Source of the DNA: Nitrosopumilaceae archaeon
GTDB lineage: Archaea > Thermoproteota > Nitrososphaeria > Nitrososphaerales > Nitrosopumilaceae
Assembly: GCA_052389415.1 (NCBI GenBank)
Contig: JBQTHX010000077.1
Coordinates: 1-33,122 of the forward strand
Length of the DNA stretch: 33,122 bases
Reading direction: 5' to 3'
Position numbers and translations under genes: made by a program. The notes under the pieces are model-generated. The model saw nothing but the letters and a program-made list of their open reading frames with translations. It did not search any database and was not told the DNA's origin. Below, piece by piece: positions 14,237-31,868 of the stretch; within the stretch, counting starts at the first letter, position 1; each line of letters begins with the position of its first letter.

Positions 14237-15070
14237 ATGATAATGAGGACCAAAACAAGATTTGTTCTTTCAAGCCTAATCTTACTTGGTATATTACAAC
14301 TAACATATGCTGAGGAAATAAAAATTCCAGATTGGATAAGAAACAATGCTAAATGGTGGTCAAACGGAGAGATTGATGACAAAACCTTTGCTAACGGAAT
14401 TCAATATCTAATAAAATCCGAAATAATAAAAATTCCCATAACTGAACGAAGTCAGATAAACCAAGACACAAAGATCCCAGATTGGGTAAGAAACAATGCC
14501 AAATGGTGGTCAAACGGGGAGATTGATGACAAAACCTTTGCTAACGGAATTCAATATCTAATAAAAGCAGGAATAATCTTTATAGCTACTGATAAAATCT
14601 CTTCTTCAGATAATCCTGATCTATCAAACTGTGATCAGTTTTTAACTGCAGCAGAAAAAAGAACTTGTCAAAAGGAGATTGAGCTTGCTAATAAAATACA
14701 AGCTGACATGGAAAAATCAACTCCTTACAACGTTGGCCCTGTGATTTTTTACTATATAGATAACAAGATTGAAAAAACATCAAGCGGAACCATTCTAACA
14801 ATATATTTTGTTGTAGAAAACACTGGAACTTCAGATGTAACCATGTCCTGTCCTGTAAACTCTTGTCATTATATGCTCAATGATGGCCAAAAAGAAATAC
14901 AGTACACTACAAACACGCTTGTGTATGGTTCATTGACTTTACAGCCCAACACTCCAAAACAGTTGGAATGGAGCTTCTATAAGGGATTAGATTATGATCC
15001 TGCAAAAGATTACTCTTTTAAGATAAAAGAATCCTGGGGCATTGGCACTATACCTTTAGGATTAGATTAG
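14237..15070 (+). CDS. Secreted protein with two thaumarchaeal IPxWxxNNAxWW repeats and an Ig-like C-terminal domain
   Basis: Signal-peptide-like N-terminus; 2x IPDW(I/V)RNNAKWWSNGEIDDKTFANGIQYLIK; VENTG...L.P beta-sandwich pattern. Confidence 0.8.
   Translation: MIMRTKTRFVLSSLILLGILQLTYAEEIKIPDWIRNNAKWWSNGEIDDKTFANGIQYLIKSEIIKIPITERSQINQDTKIPDWVRNNAKWWSNGEIDDKTFANGIQYLIKAGIIFIATDKISSSDNPDLSNCDQFLTAAEKRTCQKEIELANKIQADMEKSTPYNVGPVIFYYIDNKIEKTSSGTILTIYFVVENTGTSDVTMSCPVNSCHYMLNDGQKEIQYTTNTLVYGSLTLQPNTPKQLEWSFYKGLDYDPAKDYSFKIKESWGIGTIPLGLD
14321..14566 (+). repeat. Intragenic 96-nt direct repeat (14321-14416 and 14471-14566)
   Basis: 91 of 96 nt identical, 150 nt apart. Confidence 0.92.
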
Positions 15071-17963: not shown

Positions 17964-17976
17964 CAAAATATAAGTT
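17964..17976. repeat. Left att core
   Basis: CAAAATATAAGTT, 6 nt before the integrase ATG. Confidence 0.85.
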
Positions 17977-17982
17977 ATTAAC

Positions 17983-19203
17983 ATGGAAAGCAAAGAAAAT
18001 AGTTCTCTTAGGCATATAGGGCATAGAAAATTTGTGTCCGAATCTCCTCGAAGTTTAAGGCTCTTTGAACAGGCAATCAAGTCGCCTATAACTTACAAGA
18101 CATACAAAACGAACCTATGTATGTTTTTTGGATGGGCTAAAAAAGATCACGACTCTATTTTGGAAATGTCATCAAGTGAACTGCAGGAAGTACTTGAAGA
18201 GTATCTGTTTCATTTGAAAAAAAGATTGAGTCCAAATTCTATAGGTCCACATCTTGCTGCAATTGACAAGTTTCTTGCTGTAAATGATGTCGAATATAAA
18301 AAGCGTAAATTGCGGATGTTCCTGCCTGAAAAAGTAAAGTGCAGCGGAATCAAGGCATGGACTACACAGCACATACAAAGAATGCTAGAATATGCTGATA
18401 CTAGGAGAACCAAGGCTCTGATTCATTTTCTGTCTGCATCTGGAGTTAGGGTTGGCGCTCTTGAGGATTTGAGATGGAAAAATATTGAAGAAATGCCTAA
18501 TGGATGCTATTGTGTAACAATCTACGAAAAATCCAATCACGAATACATTACATTCCTTCACCATGAGGCTAGACAGACTCTTGATGACTATACAAATGGA
18601 AGAAGCAAATCGGGTGAAACCATAAATGGAGAATCGTTTGTTTTTCCTTCTAGGAACCGCATTAAGGACAAATCCAAACCACTAACAAGAAAAGGTATCG
18701 AGAGTTCGATTCTAAGGGTATTGAAAAGAGCGGGAATAGAAAGAACCAGAGAAAATAGGTTCAGGTTTGATATTGCAATTGATACAGGTTTTAGAAAGAG
18801 GTTTAACACCATTTTAAAAAGCAATCCTGGCATTTCCTACGCCATAGCAGAAAGGATGATGGATCATAAGACATACATGGAAACTCATTATCTTGATACT
18901 ACAAACAAGGACAAGTTTTTCGAGGAATACAAAAAAGCCATCCCAGATCTAATAATAGACGATTCTGAGAGGCTCAGAGCACAAAATCAGAAACTTGAGG
19001 CTGAAAAGGCAGAACTTGAAAAAAAGAGCCAGGAAGTTGAGGTGCTAAAGCGGAGACAAGAGGAAATCATGATGGAACTTGAAAAGATAAAGAAACGACA
19101 AGAAAGATCTGAAAAATATGGTAAAAGGACTATTGGCGATCCATTAAACTATAAAAACTTTGACAATTCGGACATATGTCCGAATTTGACAACTCGGAAA
19201 TAA
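17983..19203 (+). CDS. Tyrosine recombinase/integrase with C-terminal coiled coil
   Basis: SGVRVGAL (R), YEKS (K), TGFRKRF (HxxR with H replaced by T), MMDH, THY (Y); alternative in-frame GTG start at 18034. Confidence 0.92.
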   Translation: MESKENSSLRHIGHRKFVSESPRSLRLFEQAIKSPITYKTYKTNLCMFFGWAKKDHDSILEMSSSELQEVLEEYLFHLKKRLSPNSIGPHLAAIDKFLAVNDVEYKKRKLRMFLPEKVKCSGIKAWTTQHIQRMLEYADTRRTKALIHFLSASGVRVGALEDLRWKNIEEMPNGCYCVTIYEKSNHEYITFLHHEARQTLDDYTNGRSKSGETINGESFVFPSRNRIKDKSKPLTRKGIESSILRVLKRAGIERTRENRFRFDIAIDTGFRKRFNTILKSNPGISYAIAERMMDHKTYMETHYLDTTNKDKFFEEYKKAIPDLIIDDSERLRAQNQKLEAEKAELEKKSQEVEVLKRRQEEIMMELEKIKKRQERSEKYGKRTIGDPLNYKNFDNSDICPNLTTRK

Positions 19204-19814
19204 TCACGAAATATTTCGGAGTTGAAGAAAGGAGCAAAATGTTTTCAATCTGATATTTAACTATGGTGAATTGCGACATATGTCGCAATTGCAGAATGAG
19301 ATGCTAAAGAATGCCAGAATCTTTTTAATGTATTATTTAAAGATGATGAAATGCGCAACGTTGCGCATTTAATAGACGAGGATTTGGAAGATGCAAAAAG
19401 AATGCAGACATTTACAATCTATTATTTAAGAATGCCGAAATTAGCAATGTTGATGATTTCATAAAGCAAGATCTAGAAGAGGTCAAAAATTATGAGGACT
19501 TGATTAACCTCGCTGAGAACCTAAACGATGACCGAGAAAAGATTTGTGTCCTCTAAAAAAACTGAGAATTTTAAGGTGGAACTATTTAACTCTAGCGAAA
19601 TCGGTACTACTACCGAATTAGAGGATGACTTTGTCAATCAAGGAAAAGACTGGCTGGATGAGATAGAACTCGCTGAAACATTTTTGAATAGAAGAAAGGA
19701 ACGAAATCCTTTCAATCTGCTATTTAACTATGGTGAAATCAGGACTATTCCAGTTTTGCAAAACCTTATCAATCTAATATATAAAGAAGATGAAATCACA
19801 AAAGTTTGCGAATT
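19150..19814 (+). repeat. Array of seven TATA-like box + 22-bp palindrome units
   Basis: Palindromes at 19165, 19269, 19349 (perfect) and 19438, 19598, 19736, 19793 (8-9 of 11 pairs), each 8 nt after TATTTAA/TATATAA/TATAAAA. Confidence 0.9.
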
Positions 19815-19860
19815 GATAAATGAGATGTTTGCAGATGCCTACAATTATTACAATAACTGA
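19528..19860 (+). CDS. Hypothetical 110-aa acidic protein containing array units 5-7 in frame
   Basis: Repeated LF/Y-x3-EI motif (ELFNSSEI, NLLFNYGEI, NLIYKEDEI). Confidence 0.5.
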   Translation: MTEKRFVSSKKTENFKVELFNSSEIGTTTELEDDFVNQGKDWLDEIELAETFLNRRKERNPFNLLFNYGEIRTIPVLQNLINLIYKEDEITKVCELINEMFADAYNYYNN

Positions 19861-19916
19861 GTAATAAACACTGGAAAATAGTTCTCTTAACCTAGTTAAA
19901 TTATTCAACTAACGAG

Positions 19917-20057
19917 ATGTCATCAACTACCTTGAAGCATATTGTTGTGTCTGAGGAAAACTTCAACAAACTTAAGAATCTTGGTAAAGCAGGAGATTCC
20001 TTTAATGATGTCATTTCTAAAGTTTTGAAGAAACTTGAGGGATTAAATCAGAAATGA
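19917..20057 (+). CDS. 46-aa ribbon-helix-helix/antitoxin-like DNA-binding protein (absent from ORF track)
   Basis: MSSTTLKHIVVSEENFNKLKNLGKAGDSFNDVISKVLKKLEGLNQK; typical archaeal RHH pattern I.VS....L......SFNDVI..L. Confidence 0.8.
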   Translation: MSSTTLKHIVVSEENFNKLKNLGKAGDSFNDVISKVLKKLEGLNQK

Positions 20058-20221
20058 ATTCATCCATGACTACTTTTGCGTGTAGATGTACTGCTCCAAA
20101 AAAACATCGGCTTATCTTGGATGGAGGATCTACTGGTTTCTACTGCTTGGATCTCTGTCCATCTTGTTATGAAAAAGAGGAAAAGAAGTTCCTGATTTCA
20201 GAAGAAGAGTTGGTAAACTAA
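20054..20221 (+). CDS. 55-aa cysteine-rich putative Zn-binding protein (absent from ORF track)
   Basis: MNSSMTTFACRCTAPKKHRLILDGGSTGFYCLDLCPSCYEKEEKKFLISEEELVN; ATGA overlap with the RHH gene. Confidence 0.65.
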   Translation: MNSSMTTFACRCTAPKKHRLILDGGSTGFYCLDLCPSCYEKEEKKFLISEEELVN

Positions 20222-20228
20222 ATGATGG

Positions 20229-20348
20229 ATTCTACTCTACTTTACTTTTTACAGAATATTATCTTCCTATCAAGTTACCTCTTTACTTACTTTCTTTTAA
20301 AATTATTTTTTATTATAACAATTAGTAAAAAGTGGAGTAGAGTAGAAT
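20229..20348. repeat. 24-bp inverted repeat around an AT-rich spacer (candidate origin or operator)
   Basis: ATTCTACTCTACTTTACTTTTTAC (20229-20252) vs GTAAAAAGTGGAGTAGAGTAGAAT (20325-20348), 22 of 24 complementary. Confidence 0.8.
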
Positions 20349-20604
20349 GAAAAGAAGCATGTCAAAGGCTTTAGATAAGATATATCGACTCGTTAAGGAA
20401 AAGAAAATAGTTGATATCGTAACTTTTTGCGATTTACTAAATCTGTCGCCATCAACCTTCTATAACTATCGTAGGTTTGTTACTACTAGATATGAAAACA
20501 TAATCTATGAAAATGGATGTTTGAAATGGCTTGAGTCTGAGGCTCTTGAAACAGGAAATAATACTGAATCAAAAAATGCAGTAAAACTGCAAGAAGAGGC
20601 ATAA
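20347..20604 (+). CDS. HTH/winged-helix DNA-binding protein
   Basis: IVTFCDLLNLSPSTFYNYRR helix-turn-helix signature followed by a beta hairpin. Confidence 0.7.
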   Translation: MKRSMSKALDKIYRLVKEKKIVDIVTFCDLLNLSPSTFYNYRRFVTTRYENIIYENGCLKWLESEALETGNNTESKNAVKLQEEA

Positions 20605-20704
20605 ATAATGAGAACAAAAAATAAACATCATCTTATTGCAAAATTGAAAAAGCCTAATTTGTGCCTAGGAATGAGACAATGGAATCCCTTTTTGGAGCAT
20701 AACT

Positions 20705-20947
20705 ATGCCAACTAGTTGGAAAAATCGTTCTACATATGGAAAATTACTTCGCAGGATAATTATAAAACAAGCAGAGAGATTTGAAAAAACTACCAATGAT
20801 GAAGACGCCGTTAAAATTTCTATGAACATAGGATATCTTGTCGATAAACTAAACAATTTGTTAAAACAAGAAGAATCAAAATTAGTAGAAAGAATCGAAC
20901 AACTTGAAGAGATCTCAGGCATCACAAAAAAAGGTAATAATAATTGA
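20705..20947 (+). CDS. Hypothetical helical/coiled-coil protein
   Basis: 80 aa, LVERIEQLEE coiled coil, overlaps the next ORF. Confidence 0.6.
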   Translation: MPTSWKNRSTYGKLLRRIIIKQAERFEKTTNDEDAVKISMNIGYLVDKLNNLLKQEESKLVERIEQLEEISGITKKGNNN

Positions 20948-21369
20948 ATCTAGAGGAAAGAATTTCCAACATTAGATTTCAACACGAGGAAGATGAATCC
21001 ATTTCTGAAGAGTTAGTAAAAGAAATAATCAGAAAATTGATTTTTGAGCACTCTCTCAGGTTAATACCTGATATTCTTACCTATTGTATCATCAAACACA
21101 CCAAGTGTGATTATCATCATGCCTTGGCAATAAAGAAAAAAATGTCTGATCTTGGGATGGATGTTTGCATGGAATTCGATTATTATTCAATAGAAAAATT
21201 CGCAGAAATGCGTGATTACGTCACCGGGGAGGAATTAGAAAAAGTGTATAAGGAAATCGATGATGAAGAGAAGAAACAGAAAGAAATAGAACGATATTTT
21301 GAAGAAAAATATGGCGAAAACTGGTCAGATGAAGTTTGGGATGAATATCATGCAGCCGGCGGAATATGA
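20944..21369 (+). CDS. Hypothetical acidic protein
   Basis: 141-aa ORF in an operon-like arrangement. Confidence 0.6.
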   Translation: MNLEERISNIRFQHEEDESISEELVKEIIRKLIFEHSLRLIPDILTYCIIKHTKCDYHHALAIKKKMSDLGMDVCMEFDYYSIEKFAEMRDYVTGEELEKVYKEIDDEEKKQKEIERYFEEKYGENWSDEVWDEYHAAGGI

Positions 21370-21631
21370 TGTAGACCAAGAACTTGAATTAGATTCACAG
21401 TATACCAGCATGCCTAAAAAGTGCAAAAGTCAGCCACAATTTAATTTTGCACACCTGTCACCCTCTGTAATTCCAAATTTCGATAGGGGATCCTTCAAAA
21501 AAAGTGTACAGTTTAATTTGAAAATTTATATGCATGAGATCTACTATCTACGCATGATGCTTGACTCTTGCTGTGAATGCTGGGTAAGGCTGGCAAAAGC
21601 TTATAAATAGTCTTATGTTAGCATAAGTAGA

Positions 21632-22285
21632 ATGACATTATCGCTAGACGTTCGTAAAGGACACACCATGAGTATGGCTGTACCAAAGGATGACATAGAA
21701 ATTACAAATTTCAGAAATTATGTCTTGAAGATAGAAGGTCAGGAATTAACATCAAGAAACAGTCAGGACAAAAAACTTATGCTAAAAGTAGGAAGGGATG
21801 GAGTACTTTACCTGGAACTGATTGGCTCCGGCAAAAAACCAGTTGAAGATTTTTCTATGATATATGCCTCTGTACCAAACGGTTATACGAAATATCATAA
21901 AACTGAGGCTGCAAAAACCATCAGAGGAGTAAAGGGAAAATATCTTTATTTCAAAAATGGAGAGGATGATTTTATTGGATTTGCTGTTGGTCCTAGTGGC
22001 AAGGCGTATAAAATTGCTTTAGGAAAACTAACTGATAAAGAATCAAAATTAAGAACTGTCCTGGACAATCTTCCAGATAAACCATTTATCAAGGCATACT
22101 TCAATGACAAACTTCCATTCCATATCGTAGAAAATCGTCAACCAATCAAGGCAGCGTTAGACATCCTTGAAAAACTAGGCTACGTGAAAAAAACAGGAAA
22201 TGCTATTGGAATTTCAGAAGAATATTTCAAAACATCAAAAGTACCGCCAAAAGCGACATCTCAAATGAAACTAGCGAGAGGATAA
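21632..22285 (+). CDS. Hypothetical basic protein, possible C-terminal winged helix
   Basis: 217 aa, Lys-rich; 'KAALDILEKLGYVKK' resembles a wHTH recognition helix and wing. Confidence 0.65.
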   Translation: MTLSLDVRKGHTMSMAVPKDDIEITNFRNYVLKIEGQELTSRNSQDKKLMLKVGRDGVLYLELIGSGKKPVEDFSMIYASVPNGYTKYHKTEAAKTIRGVKGKYLYFKNGEDDFIGFAVGPSGKAYKIALGKLTDKESKLRTVLDNLPDKPFIKAYFNDKLPFHIVENRQPIKAALDILEKLGYVKKTGNAIGISEEYFKTSKVPPKATSQMKLARG

Positions 22286-22377
22286 GTAGTAACAAGAAAG
22301 GAAAGCGGATGAGAGTATGACCGTGGAGCAGGCGCTGCTCGCAATCATCATGCTAATCCCTTGTAATTACTACTTAT
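22282..22377. other. Long multi-stem hairpin between convergent genes
   Basis: ATAAGTAGTAA/TTACTACTTAT, CAAG/CTTG, GGAT/ATCC, AGTATGA/TCATGCT and GAGCAG/CTGCTC nested pairings. Confidence 0.6.
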
Positions 22378-22419
22378 ATCCTCATTCATTGTTTATTTGT
22401 CTTTTCTTGTTAAGAATAC

Positions 22420-23349
22420 TCACTTATAGTCGGCAATTTTTTTATCACTCCAAGTAGGAATTTTTTTCCATCTTGGAATTTCATTATCCTCATCAAATTC
22501 TAAAGTGAGAGACTCGTGTCTGATATTAAGTGGCTCTTTTAATCGCTTTTTTGCAAGGAGCACATACTTTTGTTGAATATCAATACCAATGAATTTTCTT
22601 CCTAGGTGTTTGGCCAGTTTTGTGGTTTGTCCACTACCATTGAAAGGATCCAACACAACATCACCAGGATATGAATACAAGTTAATTAATCGATATGGAA
22701 TTTCTTCTGGATACGGACATGGATGGTCTAGATATCCTGGTGGCACTGGTGCAATATGCCAGACAGAATTTGCAATTTCGTTATAGAGTTTTACGTTTAG
22801 ATTTTTGAAAGCGTAACCCATATCTCTTCTAAGTTTATTTCCTCCTTTTCTAAAGACAAGAATTTTTTCATGCATGATGTTTGCACGGAAATATGATGGA
22901 TAGGGATGTTGTACAAAACTTCCTGCTCTATTAGCACCACCAGTGACTTTGTGCCACACTATTTCTTCATGCAAGTTCCAACCATCTTCTACTAATTCTC
23001 TAGTTAACAACGCTGGTAGAGGTATCAATGTTCCATGATTGATTTCATTTGCAACAACTATACAACAAAAACCACCTTCAACTGTGATTCGTCTCACTTC
23101 ATTGAAAGTTCTTCTCATATCTTTTAGATATTCTTCAACTCCAATCTCTAACTTACCACGATAATTCTTTTTTGGATTGTTGCCATGTTTAACATGCATA
23201 TCATAATCTATGGCATTTCGATAATGTGGAGAAGTAATAGTCAGATTTACTGAATTATCTGGTATCTTTGACATTGCCCTGATGTTGTCAGACTTTATGA
23301 TTTGATTGCGAAGTCTGCTTGCCAAACTAGCAATCACTTTTGGATCCAT
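22420..23349 (-). CDS. Beta-class N4-cytosine/N6-adenine DNA methyltransferase
   Basis: Motif IV TSPHY near the N-terminus, IVWHK, HPCPYP, motif I VLDPFNGSGQT, GRKFIGID. Confidence 0.92.
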   Translation of the reverse strand: MDPKVIASLASRLRNQIIKSDNIRAMSKIPDNSVNLTITSPHYRNAIDYDMHVKHGNNPKKNYRGKLEIGVEEYLKDMRRTFNEVRRITVEGGFCCIVVANEINHGTLIPLPALLTRELVEDGWNLHEEIVWHKVTGGANRAGSFVQHPYPSYFRANIMHEKILVFRKGGNKLRRDMGYAFKNLNVKLYNEIANSVWHIAPVPPGYLDHPCPYPEEIPYRLINLYSYPGDVVLDPFNGSGQTTKLAKHLGRKFIGIDIQQKYVLLAKKRLKEPLNIRHESLTLEFDEDNEIPRWKKIPTWSDKKIADYK

Positions 23350-23440
23350 GCATTTAACTCTTGCTTGTTAAATTAAAAAATAATATTGAGCAATGGATAA
23401 ATGAAATATGAAAATTCAAAGAGGTTGATACGAAGACTTC

Positions 23441-24358
23441 TCAAACAGTAATGGCGCCACAGGATAGGTTTCCCCTTATTTTGCTTACTCTTATCCAGAT
23501 AAAACCATCAAAATCATTTAACACCACCTGATGATTCCTCACTAGTACATCTGTTCTCGGATCATTAACTATAGCAGATGTATTCTTCAAATCATCAACA
23601 ATGGCCTCAGGAAAATCCTTTAATTCTTTAATTAATTTCGTACTTACAAAAAATTCAAAATTCAGATAATGTGGCTCAGCCGGGTCATCATCAAGATGAA
23701 TAACTGGAAATCTAGAATTATCTCGAGCGTCTTTTATTATTTTGTATCTCCTTTGCAAATCCGGTAAATTTGCTCCACTAAAACGTATTTCTTGTGTTTT
23801 AGGCATAAGTTCTAACCTGCTTGTAGATTCTACTCCAAAAGTAAACCATCTAAATAATGAATTATTAATTTTTCTTGTATTTCTCTTACCATATTTTATT
23901 CCTTGGGTATCTTTTTCTGCTAAGGTGATATGCCATATTCTCCAATTTTCTTCTAGAGAATAATGATCAGAATTGAGGAGAATTCCATTTTCAAGTGGAT
24001 TGCTACCATCGGGTGCAATTGTAACTCTTCTATCAACTAAACCAGGAAAGAAAATGAGACGCTTTCCTGTATATGCAAAAGAACCCAAAACAAAAAATTC
24101 GTTTCTTTCTTTATAGAAGACATAAGCGATTTTTCCAATAGGTTTTCCATCCCGAATTATCTTTCTTAGAGGTCGTACTAATGCAGAATCTTCTGAAATA
24201 CTATCTCCGCTGCCAACTGGAAAACAATAGTATATGGGCATGTTTGGTCTGCCATTTTCATCAATTAGAGGATCAAGAGGCAAGAAGTATGCCTTGCCTA
24301 ATTCTCCACATTCGATTTCATGTGCAGTGGAACCGTCATTGATTATGTTGTTCTTCAT
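23441..24358 (-). CDS. Hypothetical protein (element cargo)
   Basis: 305-aa ORF, no recognised motif. Confidence 0.7.
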   Translation of the reverse strand: MKNNIINDGSTAHEIECGELGKAYFLPLDPLIDENGRPNMPIYYCFPVGSGDSISEDSALVRPLRKIIRDGKPIGKIAYVFYKERNEFFVLGSFAYTGKRLIFFPGLVDRRVTIAPDGSNPLENGILLNSDHYSLEENWRIWHITLAEKDTQGIKYGKRNTRKINNSLFRWFTFGVESTSRLELMPKTQEIRFSGANLPDLQRRYKIIKDARDNSRFPVIHLDDDPAEPHYLNFEFFVSTKLIKELKDFPEAIVDDLKNTSAIVNDPRTDVLVRNHQVVLNDFDGFIWIRVSKIRGNLSCGAITV

Positions 24359-24473
24359 TTGGGTCGTTTCTTACCTCTAGAGTTTCAGACCAATGATATA
24401 AAAACAGAAAGGAGGCAAAACTGAGGTAACAAAATAGATTAGAGCGAGTAAATGATAATTTCACTGATTCCAA

Positions 24474-25577
24474 ATGGGTTTAATTAAAGAAAATATGTAC
24501 ACCGTTGCTTCTGCGACTACTGACTTATCTGTGAATGAGGCATTTATGATTTGTAAGGATGTTTGCGAAAAAATTAAAGAAGCAAAAGTCAATGAGATAG
24601 ATGAAAACAAATTTTTGATAAAGGGAAAGTCAAAACCTAGCATACATTCGTTTGTTGGTCATAAATTTATTTTAGTAGTAACTAAGACAGAAAATGGTAG
24701 TAACATTCTGGTTTATTACAATTATTTGGGTCTTGGTGCAGGGCCAACCCCAGCGAGAGCGGACTTCATCGATCCATTATTCAATGAACTTGGTAAGAGA
24801 GTACAACTGAAGGGAATACAAACGGCGACGCAATTAATTCATGATTATTTCTTTGATAACTTGACTGGTCAAATAAAAATGGACGAAATAGATCAAAAAT
24901 TTCATTGCACAATATGTGGTAAAAATGCAGCATTCGTACAATTCCAGAAGGTTACTATATGCAATTCTTGTTTTGAAGAAAAATTTGGATCAGTGCGTTT
25001 GCGTGTAACGGGTGCTGAATATCATGGGGGTCATAAGGCATATCTAGCAGGAGGATATTTCAGTAAATTTCAATTGGGTACAATATACCTGACTGACAAC
25101 TATCTCATATTCTCAAAAGGTGACAAAGAATCCTCTCAACGCTGGGAAATAATAATCCCGTTAAGTTCGATCGTCATAGAAAAATGGGGGATAGAAGAGG
25201 AATCAAGACGAAAAGATATTTCTGGTGGTGCCGTGGCTTTAGGGGACAGTGGTGTAGCAATAGGAGGAGGAACTATACATGATTCTGGAAAAGCGCATCA
25301 TGTTGTTGTTCCATATATTGATGAGAACGGTATACCTCAAGAACCCAGGTTTGGAGCATCGTCTCTTGGTGGAAAAGTTATTCGAGAACTTTCTGCAAAG
25401 TTATACGAATTGATTGTAAAATCTAAGAAAAATAATATTCAGAATGTTAACATTAAACAACAAACTGACACACCCAAAACAAAAGAAGATGATCCTATGT
25501 TGGTTCTAAAGATGAGACTGGTTAAAGGTGAGATTACTAAGGAAGAATTTGAAGACCTAAAAAAGATGCTAGAATGA
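24474..25577 (+). CDS. Multidomain protein: Zn ribbon, PH/GRAM-like domain and C-terminal SHOCT
   Basis: CTICGK...ICNSC; YHGGH...GTIYLTDNYLIF...IIIPLSSI; DDPMLVLKMRLVKGEITKEEFEDLKKML. Confidence 0.75.
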   Translation: MGLIKENMYTVASATTDLSVNEAFMICKDVCEKIKEAKVNEIDENKFLIKGKSKPSIHSFVGHKFILVVTKTENGSNILVYYNYLGLGAGPTPARADFIDPLFNELGKRVQLKGIQTATQLIHDYFFDNLTGQIKMDEIDQKFHCTICGKNAAFVQFQKVTICNSCFEEKFGSVRLRVTGAEYHGGHKAYLAGGYFSKFQLGTIYLTDNYLIFSKGDKESSQRWEIIIPLSSIVIEKWGIEEESRRKDISGGAVALGDSGVAIGGGTIHDSGKAHHVVVPYIDENGIPQEPRFGASSLGGKVIRELSAKLYELIVKSKKNNIQNVNIKQQTDTPKTKEDDPMLVLKMRLVKGEITKEEFEDLKKMLE

Positions 25578-25622
25578 TGCATTTAGGAACAAATTAAAAA
25601 ATTATGGAATGTTTTTAAGGTA

Positions 25623-25635
25623 CAAAATATAAGTT
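25623..25635. repeat. Right att core
   Basis: CAAAATATAAGTT, 9 nt from the serS stop codon. Confidence 0.85.
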
Positions 25636-30468: not shown

Positions 30469-31041
30469 TTAGATCACTTGCCACGGTCGGGTTGCAAAGG
30501 TCACAACATAACCAACACCAATGATTATGGATTGGTATGCAATGTTTGCATATGGAATTGGTTTTAATATTTTTTCACCTTCGACCACGACTGTCTGTCC
30601 CGGTCCAAGTCCTGGACCTATTGATGCAATATTAAGCTGAGTGTGCATATGATAAACTCCTGGCTCGAGTGCTTTGACTACTAGAGTATAGTCCACAACA
30701 CCATTTCCTGGAATATCAAAGACATTTCCTGGTGGATCTCGTGATACGAATTCCCATCTGTTTCCTGCGTTTGTTGATTCACCGTAAACAGAAAGCCATC
30801 CTCTAAGATCTCGTTGAATCAGACTTACCAAGGTACCTTTCACTGTCAGGAGTTCACCTGTATTCAGAGATTGTCTTGAGAATGTCTCATCTTCGATTCT
30901 AACGAAACGACTTTGAAGCTGTGCCTGTACACCGTGCGCTTCTGCTTGCTGTAGCATTTGACCAATCGTTGGACCAACTGCTCCCAAAGCAACAATCACA
31001 CCTAGTGCTGCTACGATTAATTTTTTATTTATCATAGTCAT
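30469..31041 (-). CDS. amoB: Ammonia monooxygenase subunit B
   Basis: AEA/HGVQAQLQSRF, NAGNRWE, YHMHTQL, FATRPWQVI. Confidence 0.97.
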   Translation of the reverse strand: MTMINKKLIVAALGVIVALGAVGPTIGQMLQQAEAHGVQAQLQSRFVRIEDETFSRQSLNTGELLTVKGTLVSLIQRDLRGWLSVYGESTNAGNRWEFVSRDPPGNVFDIPGNGVVDYTLVVKALEPGVYHMHTQLNIASIGPGLGPGQTVVVEGEKILKPIPYANIAYQSIIIGVGYVVTFATRPWQVI

Positions 31042-31304
31042 CCGTAACTATTCCATGACAGAAAGACCAACGATATATGTTTTACCATAATATTCAAGAA
31101 AGGATCGAGATTTGAAGAAGGAAAGACGATAATCATTAATGATTAACATCGAAATGTTTCTTTTTACTGCTATATTTTTTATATATTCATTACAGTGTTG
31201 TCACAAATTTTTAGTAAAATATTAAATAAATATGAATAAAATAAAGCAAAAAAGCCTTATTCACAAGTTCATGCTTTATATGGAGAACAACTGAAACATG
31301 TACC

Positions 31305-31868
31305 ATGGCACAAATGCCGGCACTTATTCCAAAAGAAGTCGAGATTCAAAGACTGAAGAAGATTTGGATGATCGTCATCTCAATGGGATCTACAGCGGCA
31401 TCCGTGGAAGTCGACAACTTTGTCGATGGTTCACTACATCAAACTTCTATCAGAGATAGTGCATTTACACCAGCACACTGGTGGCTCTATAGCCACTTTG
31501 TAGCACTACCACTAGGTTGGGGTGCTGTTTCAATCTATGATAGAAAGGTACCAATTCTAAGGGGTCCAAATAACTCCATGAACACTGGTTTGAAGATGAC
31601 CATTCTAGGTTATCTGGCTACCATGTTTACAATTGGTGTCAACGAGATGTGGCACTTCTGGTACGTAGAAGAGATCTTTGCAGTACCAAACCACTGGATG
31701 TTCAATATGGGTGTGGTCGTTGCATTCATGGGCGCACTTGCCTATGTAGTTAGAGTATATGCACGATTGGTCGAACTTGGAGCAGAAACCCCAGGTGAGA
31801 ATCCATATGTTGCTGAAATGTACAAGATGGCCTTAGAAGGCAAACTGTACAGCAGATCCATCCCATAG
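31305..31868 (+). CDS. amoC: Ammonia monooxygenase subunit C
   Basis: MAQMPALIPKEVEIQRLKK, DGSLHQ...RDSAFTPAH, NEMWHFW.EE.F..PNHW. Confidence 0.98.
   Translation: MAQMPALIPKEVEIQRLKKIWMIVISMGSTAASVEVDNFVDGSLHQTSIRDSAFTPAHWWLYSHFVALPLGWGAVSIYDRKVPILRGPNNSMNTGLKMTILGYLATMFTIGVNEMWHFWYVEEIFAVPNHWMFNMGVVVAFMGALAYVVRVYARLVELGAETPGENPYVAEMYKMALEGKLYSRSIP

What the first reader, a model, noticed from the sequence alone, without database searches (positions are those of the whole stretch)
19150..19814. Integrase-linked array of TATA-like box + 22-bp variable-core palindromes with a perfect-to-degenerate gradient
Seen: seven units share the layout TAT(T/A)(T/A)AA, 8 nt, then a 22-bp palindrome bounded by AAWT...WWTT, usually preceded by YAATCTR. 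U1 19165 AATTCGGACATATGTCCGAATT, U2 19269 AATTGCGACATATGTCGCAATT and U3 19349 AAATGCGCAACGTTGCGCATTT are perfect and stop at exactly 22 bp. U4 19438 AAATTAGCAATGTTGATGATTT (8/11 pairs), U5 19598 AAATCGGTACTACTACCGAATT (9/11), U6 19736 AAATCAGGACTATTCCAGTTTT (8/11) and U7 19793 AAATCACAAAAGTTTGCGAATT (8/11) are imperfect. Symmetry, length and distance from the box are conserved, but core sequence is not. U1 and U2 differ by a mirrored CG/GC swap on both arms. Perfect copies lie next to the integrase and decayed copies lie away from it, recalling CRISPR or integron polarity. Inference: something creates or rewrites palindromes at a fixed offset from a recognition motif (for example hairpin formation or template switching after site-specific cleavage), or this is a bank of distinct operators or recombination sites. 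I know no described thaumarchaeal element with this architecture.
Basis: partly seen in the sequence, partly recalled or inferred. Interest (0 to 1): 0.92.

Follow-up and report, generated by a model that had tools for sequence, protein, structure and literature searches.

The report
Palindrome-bearing coding repeats in integrated element
The seven "box plus palindrome" units are real, but they are tandem copies of a short protein-coding repeat (one intact orphan gene and one broken copy) carried as an extra insert in a small integrated element of an ammonia-oxidising archaeon, and the palindromes have kept their symmetry while their sequence changed, for a reason not yet settled.

Summary
All seven units lie where stated, with 11, 11, 11, 8, 9, 8 and 8 of 11 pairs. 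The three perfect 22-bp palindromes are the only ones in the window and 3 of 7 in the 1.43-Mb genome.

- The units are homologous coding repeats. The "TATA-like box" is the L-F-N/K codons and the outer arms are E-I ... x-L codons.
- Substitutions are 3-periodic (permutation p=0.0007), and codon usage is gene-like only in each unit's own frame.
- U5-U7 lie in an intact orphan ORF, 19528-19860. U1-U4 are a decayed copy with one in-frame stop and three frame-breaking deletions.
- The block is an accessory insert of about 745 bp in a 7.66-kb integrated element (att core CAAAATATAAGTT; empty site in 9 of 9 relatives).
- The two closest related integrases have no array.

The symmetry is not explained by codons. 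Seven of 11 pairs covary, and synonymous recoding rarely reaches the observed pairing.

My best reading is arm-to-arm template-switch symmetrisation, unopposed in the dead copy. Functional hairpins or operators remain a live rival. Interest is moderate to low.

The parts
17964..17976 (.). attL core CAAAATATAAGTT, left end of the integrated element
   Evidence: 13-nt exact direct repeat with 25623-25635. Homology to 9 of 9 same-genus empty sites ends here.
25623..25635 (.). attR core CAAAATATAAGTT, right end of the 7.66-kb element
   Evidence: Contigs show loose ends at 17976 and 25623 that read the empty-site junction.
17983..19203 (+). Tyrosine-recombinase integrase, 406 aa. Its last ~25 codons read into the left end of the repeat block, and U1 lies in its last 13 codons.
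   Evidence: PF00589 E=3.5e-14 and an N-terminal SAM-like domain. The C-terminal tail diverges from L031 after ...SEKY(G/S)K.
19130..19873 (+). Accessory insert of about 745 bp that holds the whole array. It is absent from the related element L031. Boundaries are approximate.
   Evidence: L031 goes from the integrase stop to the conserved GA(A)AATAGTTC motif in about 78 nt.
19165..19186 (.). U1, perfect 22-bp palindrome
   Evidence: RNA hairpin -12.2 kcal/mol.
19269..19290 (.). U2, perfect 22-bp palindrome
   Evidence: RNA hairpin -13.3 kcal/mol.
19349..19370 (.). U3, perfect 22-bp palindrome
   Evidence: RNA hairpin -11.8 kcal/mol.
19438..19459 (.). U4, imperfect palindrome (8 of 11 pairs; 10 of 11 if G-T is counted)
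19598..19619 (.). U5, imperfect palindrome (9 of 11), inside ORF110
19736..19757 (.). U6, imperfect palindrome (8 of 11), inside ORF110
19793..19814 (.). U7, imperfect palindrome (8 of 11), inside ORF110
19164..19545 (+). Decayed copy 'A' of the repeat gene (U1-U4). The unit frames step by -1 at each unit (unit spacings 104, 80 and 89 nt, each 2 mod 3). There is no start codon in the unit frames.
   Evidence: Frame translations. Codon-usage score is highest, and above about zero, only in each unit's own frame. 3-periodic differences within A are 0.42/0.23/0.56.
19223..19225 (+). In-frame TGA in copy A where copy B has AGA (19690-19692)
   Evidence: Gapless 63-nt alignment D2, read in B's frame.
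19528..19860 (+). ORF110, an intact 110-aa orphan ORF that contains U5-U7 in one frame
   Evidence: Codon score +0.24 per codon against -0.58 and -1.19 off-frame. No relative among 5.8 billion word-indexed proteins or 1.84 billion phmmer representatives.
19336..19342 (+). T_TTA_AAG heptamer in the incoming frame, 6 nt upstream of hairpin U3. This is the only canonical -1 slippery site in the array.
   Evidence: Read and the frames. The zero-frame stop TAA is at 19370-19372.
19207..19218 (.). Extra perfect 12-nt palindrome CGAAATATTTCG in copy A. Its counterpart in B is imperfect.
   Evidence: alignment D2.
19753..19764 (.). Extra perfect 12-nt palindrome GTTTTGCAAAAC in ORF110. Its counterpart in A is imperfect.
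19874..19889 (+). Conserved motif GAAAATAGTTCTCTTA upstream of the RHH gene. It is repeated at 17995-18010 and marks the right edge of the insert.
   Evidence: A variant is present upstream of the RHH gene in L031.

Best explanation
The array is not a set of promoters or integrase sites. It is a lineage-specific block of about 745 bp of tandemly duplicated protein-coding repeats.

What each unit is (shown). Each unit encodes roughly phi-N-L-phi-F-(N/K)-x-x-E-I-x-x-phi-x-x-L plus a variable helical tail.
- The 'TATA-like box' is the L-F-N/K codons.
- The AAWT...WWTT ends of the palindrome are the E-I and x-L codons.
- The YAATCTR motif is the (F/Y)-N-L codons.

Where it sits (shown). Units U5-U7 form an intact orphan gene, ORF110 (19528-19860). 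Units U1-U4 are an upstream copy that has died, with one in-frame stop, two 1-nt deletions in short homopolymer runs and a net 4-nt deletion. The block is an accessory insert between the integrase and the conserved RHH, Zn-ribbon and HTH genes of a 7.66-kb cryptic integrated element. That element sits in the S3Ae/SerRS intergenic site and is still polymorphic in the population.

The second layer (shown). A nucleotide-level dyad symmetry lies on top of the coding repeat. It has been kept in all seven units while the core sequence changed.

How the symmetry is kept (inferred). I think replication template switching between the two arms of a quasi-palindrome copies one arm onto the other. A change in one arm is then either erased or mirrored. 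In the live gene, protein constraint blocks many such events, for example at the conserved Ile codon, so its cores stay imperfect. In the dead copy nothing opposes the process, so its three cores are perfect through the centre. On this reading perfect means derived and unconstrained, not newly made by the integrase.

The confidence given is for the whole statement, mechanism included. The coding-repeat, accessory-insert part alone I hold at about 0.85.
For: Coding origin:
- Unit-frame peptides align.
- Column entropy by codon position is 0.88/0.59/1.08, and permutation of position 3 against position 2 gives p=0.00065.
- Differences by codon position are 0.42/0.23/0.56 within U2-U4, 0.50/0.42/0.56 within U5-U7, and 0.46/0.30/0.53 between the two sets.
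- Codon-usage log-odds are highest in each unit's own frame. ORF110 scores +0.24, U3 +0.34, U4 +0.32 and U2 -0.05, against -0.5 to -1.5 off-frame. The integrase scores +0.19.

Dead copy:
- TGA at 19223 where B has AGA.
- Unit spacings of 104, 80 and 89 nt, all 2 mod 3 (coordinates).
- No start codon in the unit frames.

Accessory and not integrase-linked:
- L031 (integrase 79% identical, same att core, same S3Ae neighbour) lacks the block.
- L002 (integrase 71% identical) lacks it.
- The unit DNA is found nowhere else in the genome.

Integrated element: 13-nt direct repeat; empty site in 9 of 9 loci; contig depth 15.4 against 22, plus empty-site junctions.

Symmetry is real and at nucleotide level:
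- 88% of cells are paired, 7 of 11 pairs change on both sides, and 0 of 500 shuffles reach the observed covariation score. Slid controls give 23-41% paired.
- Synonymous recoding of each unit's own peptide reaches the observed pairing with P=0.003, 0.007, 5e-5, 0.07, 4.5e-4, 0.004 and 0.10 for U1-U7.
- The perfect units use rare codons: CGC 0.04, TCG 0.07, GCG 0.08, TCC 0.08 relative usage.

Perfect state is derived:
- Unit codon 10 is Ile in 4 of 4 imperfect units but F, L or M in 3 of 3 perfect ones.
- This is exactly the change needed to close the pair (position 3 with position 20) that an E-I ... E-L codon set breaks, as it does in U5 and U7.

Mechanism has precedent. Quasi-palindromes are template-switch hotspots, and the resulting mutations extend identity between the arms (PMC7202029 and PMC3820800; I saw only the abstract starts in the listing).
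Against: - Nothing here observes template switching. The mechanism is inferred from pattern alone.
- The perfect cores are more G+C-rich (26 of 42 inner bases) than the imperfect ones (26 of 56) in a 36% G+C genome (read). They also fold as the most stable hairpins. This fits selection for a stable structure better than neutral symmetrisation, though the numbers are small.
- U1 and U2 cores are more alike (18 of 22) than either is to its positional counterpart in copy B (U5 16 of 22, U6 10 of 22). This could mean convergence on a binding site.
- Two mismatches in the live gene (pair 6-17 in U6 and in U7) could be closed by synonymous changes but are not.
- Symmetry is not one-directional. The 12-nt palindrome at 19753 is perfect in B and imperfect in A.
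- Another perfect 22-mer in this genome (C32:577) lies just upstream of an RHH-like gene, as an operator would.
- ORF110 has no homologue and AF2 gives pLDDT 42, so its translation is unproven.
- Only one comparable element exists, so whether the insert is ancestral or derived cannot be told.
Confidence: 0.5

Rival explanations
1. Exapted cis-elements. The three perfect palindromes in the dead copy, and perhaps the weaker ones, are selected sites. They could be operators for a dimeric DNA-binding protein of the element (RHH at 19917, HTH at 20347, or the ORF110 product). They could instead be hairpin or cruciform elements used in replication or transfer of the excised circle. On this reading selection, not mutation bias, keeps them symmetric.
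For: - Zero broken pairs in 66 nt of a copy that carries four disabling lesions.
- Cores are G+C-enriched and use rare codons, and are the most stable hairpins.
- U1 and U2 cores are 82% alike although their flanks are unrelated (D5).
- Elsewhere in this genome a perfect 22-mer lies directly upstream of an RHH-like gene (C32:577), and another lies in an iteron-rich region after a paralogous integrase (C18:22854).
Against: - The only related element has the same RHH, Zn-ribbon and HTH genes and the same att site but no array, so the family does not need these sites.
- The non-coding structure that the family does conserve is a different one, the TCTACTCTACT inverted repeat at 20229-20348.
- The three cores differ from one another, which is odd for one binding protein.
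- Half-sites AAWTSSG are not enriched elsewhere in the element.
- Symmetry runs through the central 4 nt, which neither a hairpin loop nor most operators require.
Confidence: 0.2
2. Archaeal promoter-operator units, the reader's option (b). Each TATWWAA would be a TATA box and each palindrome an operator overlapping the transcription start. U1 and U2 would drive leaderless transcripts that begin near the central CATATG.
For: - The heptamers are TATA-like, and the fixed 8-nt offset puts the palindrome centre about 23 nt after the box centre.
- ATG lies at the centre of U1 (19176) and U2 (19280).
Against: - The box is explained by conserved L-F-N/K codons with 3-periodic divergence.
- ORFs opened at the central ATGs are only about 25-30 codons.
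- In this genome the A+T enrichment upstream of ATGs lies at -29 to -25, about 3-4 nt further upstream than here. That signal is weak because starts were guessed.
- U5-U7 lie inside an ORF.
- No RNA run was available.
Confidence: 0.08
3. RNA-level device: hairpins that stimulate -1 ribosomal frameshifting. The copy U2-U4 would then be read through its successive -1 frame steps rather than being dead.
For: - All three frame steps in copy A are -1 (spacings 104, 80 and 89 nt).
- At U3 a canonical X_XXY_YYZ heptamer (19336-19342) lies in the incoming frame. It is 6 nt before a 9-bp-stem hairpin of -11.8 kcal/mol, and the zero-frame stop follows directly after the hairpin.
- Differences within copy A remain strongly 3-periodic.
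- -1 frameshifting is documented in an archaeon (PMC1616953; abstract start only).
Against: - Only 1 of 3 junctions has a canonical heptamer. U4 has T_TTA_AGA and a weak hairpin (-4.9 kcal/mol).
- At U2 the incoming frame is closed by TGA 19251 before the site.
- The frame that enters U3 has no start codon upstream of the centre of the U2 palindrome, and it carries the in-frame TGA at 19223.
- The same motif-plus-hairpin layout occurs in frame in ORF110, where no shift is needed.
- The heptamer is simply the L-F-K codons read one base off.
Confidence: 0.06
4. The adjacent integrase, or another site-specific enzyme, creates or rewrites palindromes at a fixed offset from a recognition box, or uses them as recombination sites. 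This would give an integron- or CRISPR-like polar array.
For: - The array is adjacent to a tyrosine recombinase, and U1 lies inside its 3' end.
- The 7+8+7 geometry resembles a recombinase core site. This comparison is from my own knowledge.
- Perfect units lie nearest the integrase.
Against: - 0 of 2 closely related integrases have an array.
- The integrase's actual crossover core, CAAAATATAAGTT, is unrelated to the palindromes.
- The units are homologous coding repeats whose order reflects a segmental duplication, U1-U2-U3 with U5-U6-U7, not serial addition.
- There are no cassettes or spacers.
- Contigs of two samples show no variation in unit number or cores (contigs only).
Confidence: 0.04

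Closest known systems
Quasi-palindrome template-switch mutation hotspots (E. coli and yeast reporters; PMC7202029, PMC3820800, abstract starts seen)
   Same: Short imperfect inverted repeats whose arms are made complementary by templated, multi-base changes. This predicts mirrored ('compensatory') changes and perfection through the centre without selection.
   Different: Those are laboratory reporter sites seen as single events. Here the pattern is inferred from seven paralogous units in one natural locus, and no switching event is observed.
Cryptic integrated elements of Thaumarchaeota (Krupovic et al. 2019, PMC6563490; passages read)
   Same: A small integrase-bearing element with short direct repeats in an intergenic target and mostly orphan genes. 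The paper reports 15 of 68 elements in intergenic regions and cryptic elements of 2.6-98 kb.
   Different: The passages I read describe no palindrome array. The paper's supplementary tables were closed, so I could not check whether an element at the S3Ae/SerRS site is listed.
Rickettsia palindromic elements inserted in frame in genes (recalled; no call)
   Same: Hairpin-capable palindromic DNA that is also translated as part of a protein.
   Different: Those are dispersed mobile repeats of about 100-150 bp. Here the units are local tandem duplicates found nowhere else in the genome.
Integron attC arrays
   Same: They sit next to a tyrosine recombinase, and the sites are conserved in symmetry rather than in sequence.
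   Different: Here there are no gene cassettes between sites (spacing 57-160 nt) and the palindromes are perfect and loop-free rather than bulged imperfect ones. The array is absent beside related integrases, and the integrase is an ordinary att-site integrase.
-1 programmed ribosomal frameshift signals (archaeal example fucA1, PMC1616953; abstract start)
   Same: At U3 there is a heptamer, a 6-nt spacer and a stable hairpin, with a -1 frame that continues.
   Different: Only one junction is canonical, there is no initiating ORF, and the same layout occurs in frame in ORF110.

Membership tests
Protein-coding tandem repeat (gene plus decayed paralogue) | Divergence among the repeats is 3-periodic: position 2 changes least and position 3 most | tested here: met
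   Entropy 0.88/0.59/1.08 with p=0.00065. Within U2-U4 the differences are 0.42/0.23/0.56.
Protein-coding tandem repeat (gene plus decayed paralogue) | Gene-like codon usage in the proposed frame only | tested here: met
   ORF110 +0.24, U3 +0.34, U4 +0.32 and U2 -0.05 per codon, against -0.5 to -1.5 off-frame. The units share ancestry, so these are not independent tests.
Protein-coding tandem repeat (gene plus decayed paralogue) | An uninterrupted ORF with a start codon | tested here: inconclusive
   Met for 19528-19860. Not met for U1-U4, which have TGA 19223, three -1-type frame breaks and no start.
Protein-coding tandem repeat (gene plus decayed paralogue) | Homologous proteins elsewhere | tested here: not met
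   Only the protein itself among 5.8 billion and 1.84 billion proteins. No hit in Pfam, PHROGs or the ESM Atlas (best 0.84).
Quasi-palindrome template-switch hotspot | Inverted repeat able to form a hairpin, with changes mirrored on both arms | tested here: met
   7 of 11 pairs change on both sides and 0 of 500 shuffles reach the score. Hairpins fold at -2 to -13 kcal/mol.
Quasi-palindrome template-switch hotspot | Switching events observed directly (complex templated mutations in a lineage or in reads) | not testable with these tools
   Only assembled contigs were available, and there is no orthologous array.
Integron (attC cassette array) | Gene cassettes between successive sites | tested here: not met
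   Spacings are 104, 80, 89, 160, 138 and 57 nt.
Integron (attC cassette array) | Array conserved beside related integrases | tested here: not met
   0 of 2 related integrases have one.
CRISPR array | Near-identical repeats separated by unique spacers of similar length | tested here: not met
   Cores are 41% identical and flanks are homologous. Spacing is irregular.
Archaeal promoter plus operator | A transcription start about 25 nt downstream of the TATA-like box | not testable with these tools
   No RNA run was listed.
-1 programmed frameshift site | X_XXY_YYZ heptamer in the incoming frame, a 5-9 nt spacer, a downstream structure, and an upstream ORF with a start codon | tested here: not met
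   Heptamer, spacer and hairpin are met at U3 only, 1 of 3 junctions. There is no upstream start, and TGA 19223 and TGA 19251 block the incoming frames.
Tyrosine-recombinase core site of this integrase | Resemblance to the element's own crossover core | tested here: not met
   The att core CAAAATATAAGTT and its flanks share nothing with the 22-mers.
Thaumarchaeal cryptic integrated element | Integrase, flanking direct repeat, and an empty site in relatives | tested here: met

The most novel reading that the evidence does not exclude
The palindromes are selected cis-elements that evolve by compensatory change inside a coding repeat. They would be a small bank of hairpin or operator sites, exapted from a dead gene copy in an active integrative element of an ammonia-oxidising archaeon. 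The most exotic version is a serial hairpin-stimulated -1 frameshift device. In either form, one 22-nt stretch would serve both as codons and as a symmetric DNA or RNA signal, and the signal would win once the gene copy died.
Probability: 0.25. Interest if true: 0.6.

Novelty: new variant of a known kind. Interest (0 to 1): 0.35.

Why it matters
If the template-switch reading is right, this locus is a natural side-by-side comparison. The same quasi-palindromes stay imperfect where a protein constrains them and become perfect where it does not. That would be a clean field example of a mutation process known mainly from reporter assays. It is also a warning that 'compensatory' covariation can arise without selection for structure.

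If the palindromes are instead functional, they would be new cis-elements of thaumarchaeal mobile elements, whose regulation and replication are essentially unknown.

Either way, the finding is not an integrase-made array, and it rests on a single locus.

Tried and rejected
Searches that found nothing or added nothing:
- Relatives of the array. There were no hits for the 741-bp block in INPHARED phages, and none for the unit-head pattern in JGI metagenome contigs. Among 400 other genomes of the family, 52 gave only 20-45-nt matches. The best, 24 nt in G323, lies in an unrelated gene encoding ...GDLEDAKRI..., and I treat it as chance.
- Integrase relatives. There were none in metagenome contigs or viral contigs and one in genome contigs (L031).
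- The HTH-gene module was found in 2 of 401 family genomes, counting the window's own genome.
- Rfam gave two sub-threshold snoRNA matches, E 0.7-0.8 and far below the gathering score. I rejected both.
- AlphaFold2 on ORF110 without an alignment gave pLDDT 42.4 and pTM 0.28, helical but uninformative. No fold search was run on it.
- The ESM Atlas best score was 0.84, below the level where a hit means anything.
- PHROGs and Pfam gave nothing for ORF110 or for most element ORFs.
- Sequencing runs: no RNA holder was listed, so expression is untested. The reads laid were Logan contigs only. They show identical array sequence in two samples that may be the source, and they cannot show rare variants. 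A third run of the same study had no cover.
- A genome-derived promoter profile gave only a weak A+T signal at -29 to -25, because start codons were guessed. It is too weak to score the boxes.
- The local alignment of the integrase 3' end with the region before U5 was not significant; 76 of 500 shuffles scored as high. I therefore make no claim that the duplication included the integrase tail.
- The MAFFT alignment of the window with L031 misplaced the flanks. I read the indel boundaries by eye.

Ideas considered from recall and dropped without a test: C/D-box sRNA genes, telomere-resolvase targets, shufflon sfx sites, restriction-modification sites, and archaeal terminators. For the last, no T-runs follow the hairpins.

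Supplementary tables of PMC6563490, which list integration sites, were closed and could bear on whether this element family is already catalogued.


Full report
OBSERVATION. Pair counts are 11, 11, 11, 8, 9, 8 and 8 of 11. The perfect palindromes are maximal at exactly 22 bp. They are the only perfect 22-bp palindromes in the 33-kb window and 3 of only 7 in the 1.43-Mb, 94-contig genome. The composite layout TATWWAA-N8-AAWT-N14-WWTT occurs 10 times on both strands of the genome, and 7 of those are in this array. This is far beyond chance. Three details need correcting. CAATCT(G/A) precedes 4 of 7 units. The 'gradient' is a step. The units are parts of longer direct repeats of 57-160 nt (alignment).

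SETTING. The window comes from an ammonia-oxidising archaeon; AmoC and AmoB fragments and 36% G+C point that way.
- The integrase (17983-19203; PF00589) is the first gene of a 7.66-kb integrated element bounded by a 13-nt direct repeat, CAAAATATAAGTT, at 17964 and 25623.
- In 9 of 9 same-genus loci that hold the flanking S3Ae gene, the site is empty and S3Ae abuts the 3' end of the seryl-tRNA synthetase gene.
- In the assembled contigs of two samples the element has depth 15.4 against 22 for the flanks. Loose ends at 17976 and 25623 read the empty junction. The element is therefore polymorphic and probably active.
- It fits the 'cryptic integrated elements' of Krupovic et al. 2019 (PMC6563490, passages read).

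THE UNITS ARE CODING REPEATS.
- Translated in the frame set by the conserved head, the units read as follows:
  - U2: FNLIFNYGELRHMSQL...
  - U3: FNVLFKDDEMRNVAHL...
  - U4: YNLLFKNAEISNVDDF...
  - U5: (V)ELFNSSEIGTTTEL...
  - U6: FNLLFNYGEIRTIPVL...
  - U7: INLIYKEDEITKVCEL...
- The 'box' is the (L/I)-F-(N/K) codons. YAATCTR is (F/Y)-N-L. The AAWT/WWTT ends are E-(I/L/M) and x-(L/F).
- Variation among units is 3-periodic. Entropy by codon position is 0.88/0.59/1.08, with permutation p=0.00065. The pattern also holds within U2-U4 alone, at 0.42/0.23/0.56.
- A codon-usage score trained on 469 long ORFs of this genome is highest in each unit's own frame.
- U5-U7 lie in one intact ORF of 110 aa (19528-19860).
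- U1-U4 need a -1 step at every unit, because the spacings of 104, 80 and 89 nt are all 2 mod 3. They also carry an in-frame TGA (19223) where the intact copy has AGA, and no start codon.
- By reading the junctions against the unit consensus, I place two of the frame breaks at a CC run (19314-15) and an A5 run (19395-99). The third is a net 4-nt loss between U1 and 19208. These placements are inference.
- So U1-U4 are a dead copy and U5-U7 a live or recently live one. A global alignment is colinear for U1-U2-U3 against U5-U6-U7, and D2 is 84% identical over 63 nt.

NOT LINKED TO THE INTEGRASE.
- ORF110 has no relative in 5.8 billion proteins or in 1.84 billion representatives searched by phmmer.
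- The closest integrase found (79% identity; L031, a Nitrosotenuis MAG contig) sits at the same att core beside S3Ae. It is followed within about 78 nt by homologues of the RHH, Zn-ribbon and HTH genes that in the window follow the array. The block of about 745 bp (19130-19873) is simply absent.
- The next closest integrase (71%, L002) has no array either.
- The non-coding structure that the family does conserve is a different one, a TCTACTCTACT inverted repeat upstream of the HTH gene.
- The integrase's last ~25 codons differ from L031 and read into the left end of the block. U1's position 'inside' the integrase is therefore a consequence of the insert.

THE SYMMETRY IS REAL AND NOT EXPLAINED BY CODONS.
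- Across the seven 22-mers, 88% of cells pair and 7 of 11 pairs change on both sides. Pair 8-15, for example, is A-T, C-G, T-A or G-C. No shuffle out of 500 reaches the covariation score, and sliding the partner by 1-3 columns drops pairing to 23-41%.
- Conserved residues account for the outer four pairs and part of the position-2 pairs, because hydrophobic NTN codons face polar NAN codons.
- When I recoded each unit's own peptide with synonymous codons drawn from genome usage, the observed pairing was reached with P=0.003, 0.007, 5e-5, 0.07, 4.5e-4, 0.004 and 0.10 for U1-U7. This includes units inside the intact ORF.
- The perfect units use rare codons: CGC 0.04, TCG 0.07, GCG 0.08.
- The inner core is as variable as the tail (41% against 44% pairwise identity), while the head is 66% identical. 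The core changes freely but symmetrically.

WHY PERFECT IN THE DEAD COPY.
- Codon 10 of the unit is Ile in 4 of 4 imperfect units and F, L or M in 3 of 3 perfect ones.
- The conserved E-I ... E-L codon set, as in U5 and U7, forces a mismatch at the pair of positions 3 and 20. The perfect units have given up the conserved residue to close it.
- Hence symmetry has overridden the protein consensus in the copy that no longer codes, and the protein consensus overrides symmetry in the copy that does. The perfect state is derived.
- The simplest process that does this without any new biology is template switching at quasi-palindromes. It copies one arm from the other in a single event and is a documented hotspot mechanism (PMC7202029 and PMC3820800; abstract starts only).
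- It predicts mirrored changes, perfection through the centre, and blockage by purifying selection in a live gene.
- I hold this mechanism at roughly even odds. The coding-repeat, accessory-insert part of the explanation I hold at about 0.85.

WHAT SPEAKS FOR A FUNCTION INSTEAD.
- The perfect cores are G+C-richer (26 of 42 against 26 of 56 inner bases, read) and form the most stable hairpins, -11.8 to -13.3 kcal/mol against -2.1 to -10.5.
- U1 and U2 cores resemble each other more than they resemble their positional counterparts.
- Two synonymous fixes are unused in ORF110.
- In the same genome a perfect 22-mer lies just upstream of an RHH-like gene (C32:577). Another lies in an iteron-rich stretch after a paralogous integrase (C18:22854).
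- At U3 a canonical -1 slippery heptamer (19336-19342) lies in the incoming frame 6 nt before the hairpin, with the zero-frame stop right after it. The other two junctions are not canonical, and the incoming frames lack a start or are closed. I therefore rate a frameshift cascade as unlikely.
- No RNA data were available.

VERDICT. The integrase-linked, promoter-box and CRISPR- or integron-like reading is not supported. The idea that palindromes are being rewritten by template switching survives as a passive mutational process. The finding is a curious single-locus case. It is a new variant of known things (tandem orphan-gene duplication in a mobile element, and quasi-palindrome dynamics) rather than a new kind of system.

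Noticed in passing
window 17964-25635: A 7.66-kb cryptic integrated element (integrase, RHH, Zn-ribbon, HTH, N6/N4 DNA methyltransferase and several orphan ORFs) sits in the S3Ae/SerRS intergenic site with a 13-nt att core. It is polymorphic in the sampled population: contig depth is 15.4 against 22, and empty-site junction contigs are present.
   Followed up: yes
L031 3982-6024 (Nitrosotenuis MAG contig): An element of the same family, in another genus, is integrated at the identical 13-nt core beside S3Ae. Its integrase is 79% identical and its RHH, Zn-ribbon and HTH genes are conserved. The module was otherwise found in only 1 of 400 other family genomes searched.
   Followed up: partly
window 20229-20262 / 20315-20348; L031 5568-5706: A large inverted repeat built of TCTACTCTACT motifs flanks an A+T-rich spacer just upstream of the HTH gene. 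It is conserved in both elements and is a better candidate for the family's operator or origin than the palindrome array.
   Followed up: partly
window 17995-18010 and 19874-19889: The 16-nt motif GAAAATAGTTCTCTTA occurs both inside the 5' end of the integrase gene and upstream of the RHH gene. L031 has variants at both places. It may be a regulator binding site.
   Followed up: partly
genome contig C18 22300-23000: Downstream of a paralogous integrase (38% identity) lies a non-coding stretch full of CACAT(G/A)A-type iterons and CCTAAGA repeats. It includes a perfect 22-bp palindrome made of two inverted iterons (C18:22854). It looks like an origin or operator region of a second integrated element.
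   Followed up: partly
genome contigs C32:577, C67:36266, C80:1183: These are the other perfect 22-bp palindromes of the genome. C32's lies about 12 nt upstream of an RHH-like gene, like an operator. C67's is the centre of a longer intergenic palindrome. C80's lies inside a 478-aa ORF.
   Followed up: partly
window 14237-15070: A 277-aa ORF has an internal duplication of about 32 aa (KIPDW(I/V)RNNAKWWSNGEIDDKTFANGIQYLIK appears twice) and no Pfam match.
   Followed up: no
window 30469-31868: Short ORFs match only parts of AmoB (residues 117-156) and AmoC (profile positions 88-243). They may be truncated or divergent extra copies of ammonia monooxygenase subunits.
   Followed up: no
L035 (G323:C103:3068-3091): A 24-nt exact match to window 19380-19403 lies in an unrelated housekeeping-looking gene of another genus (peptide ...GDLEDAKRI...). 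It is probably chance, but it is the only long exact match to the array found anywhere.
   Followed up: partly
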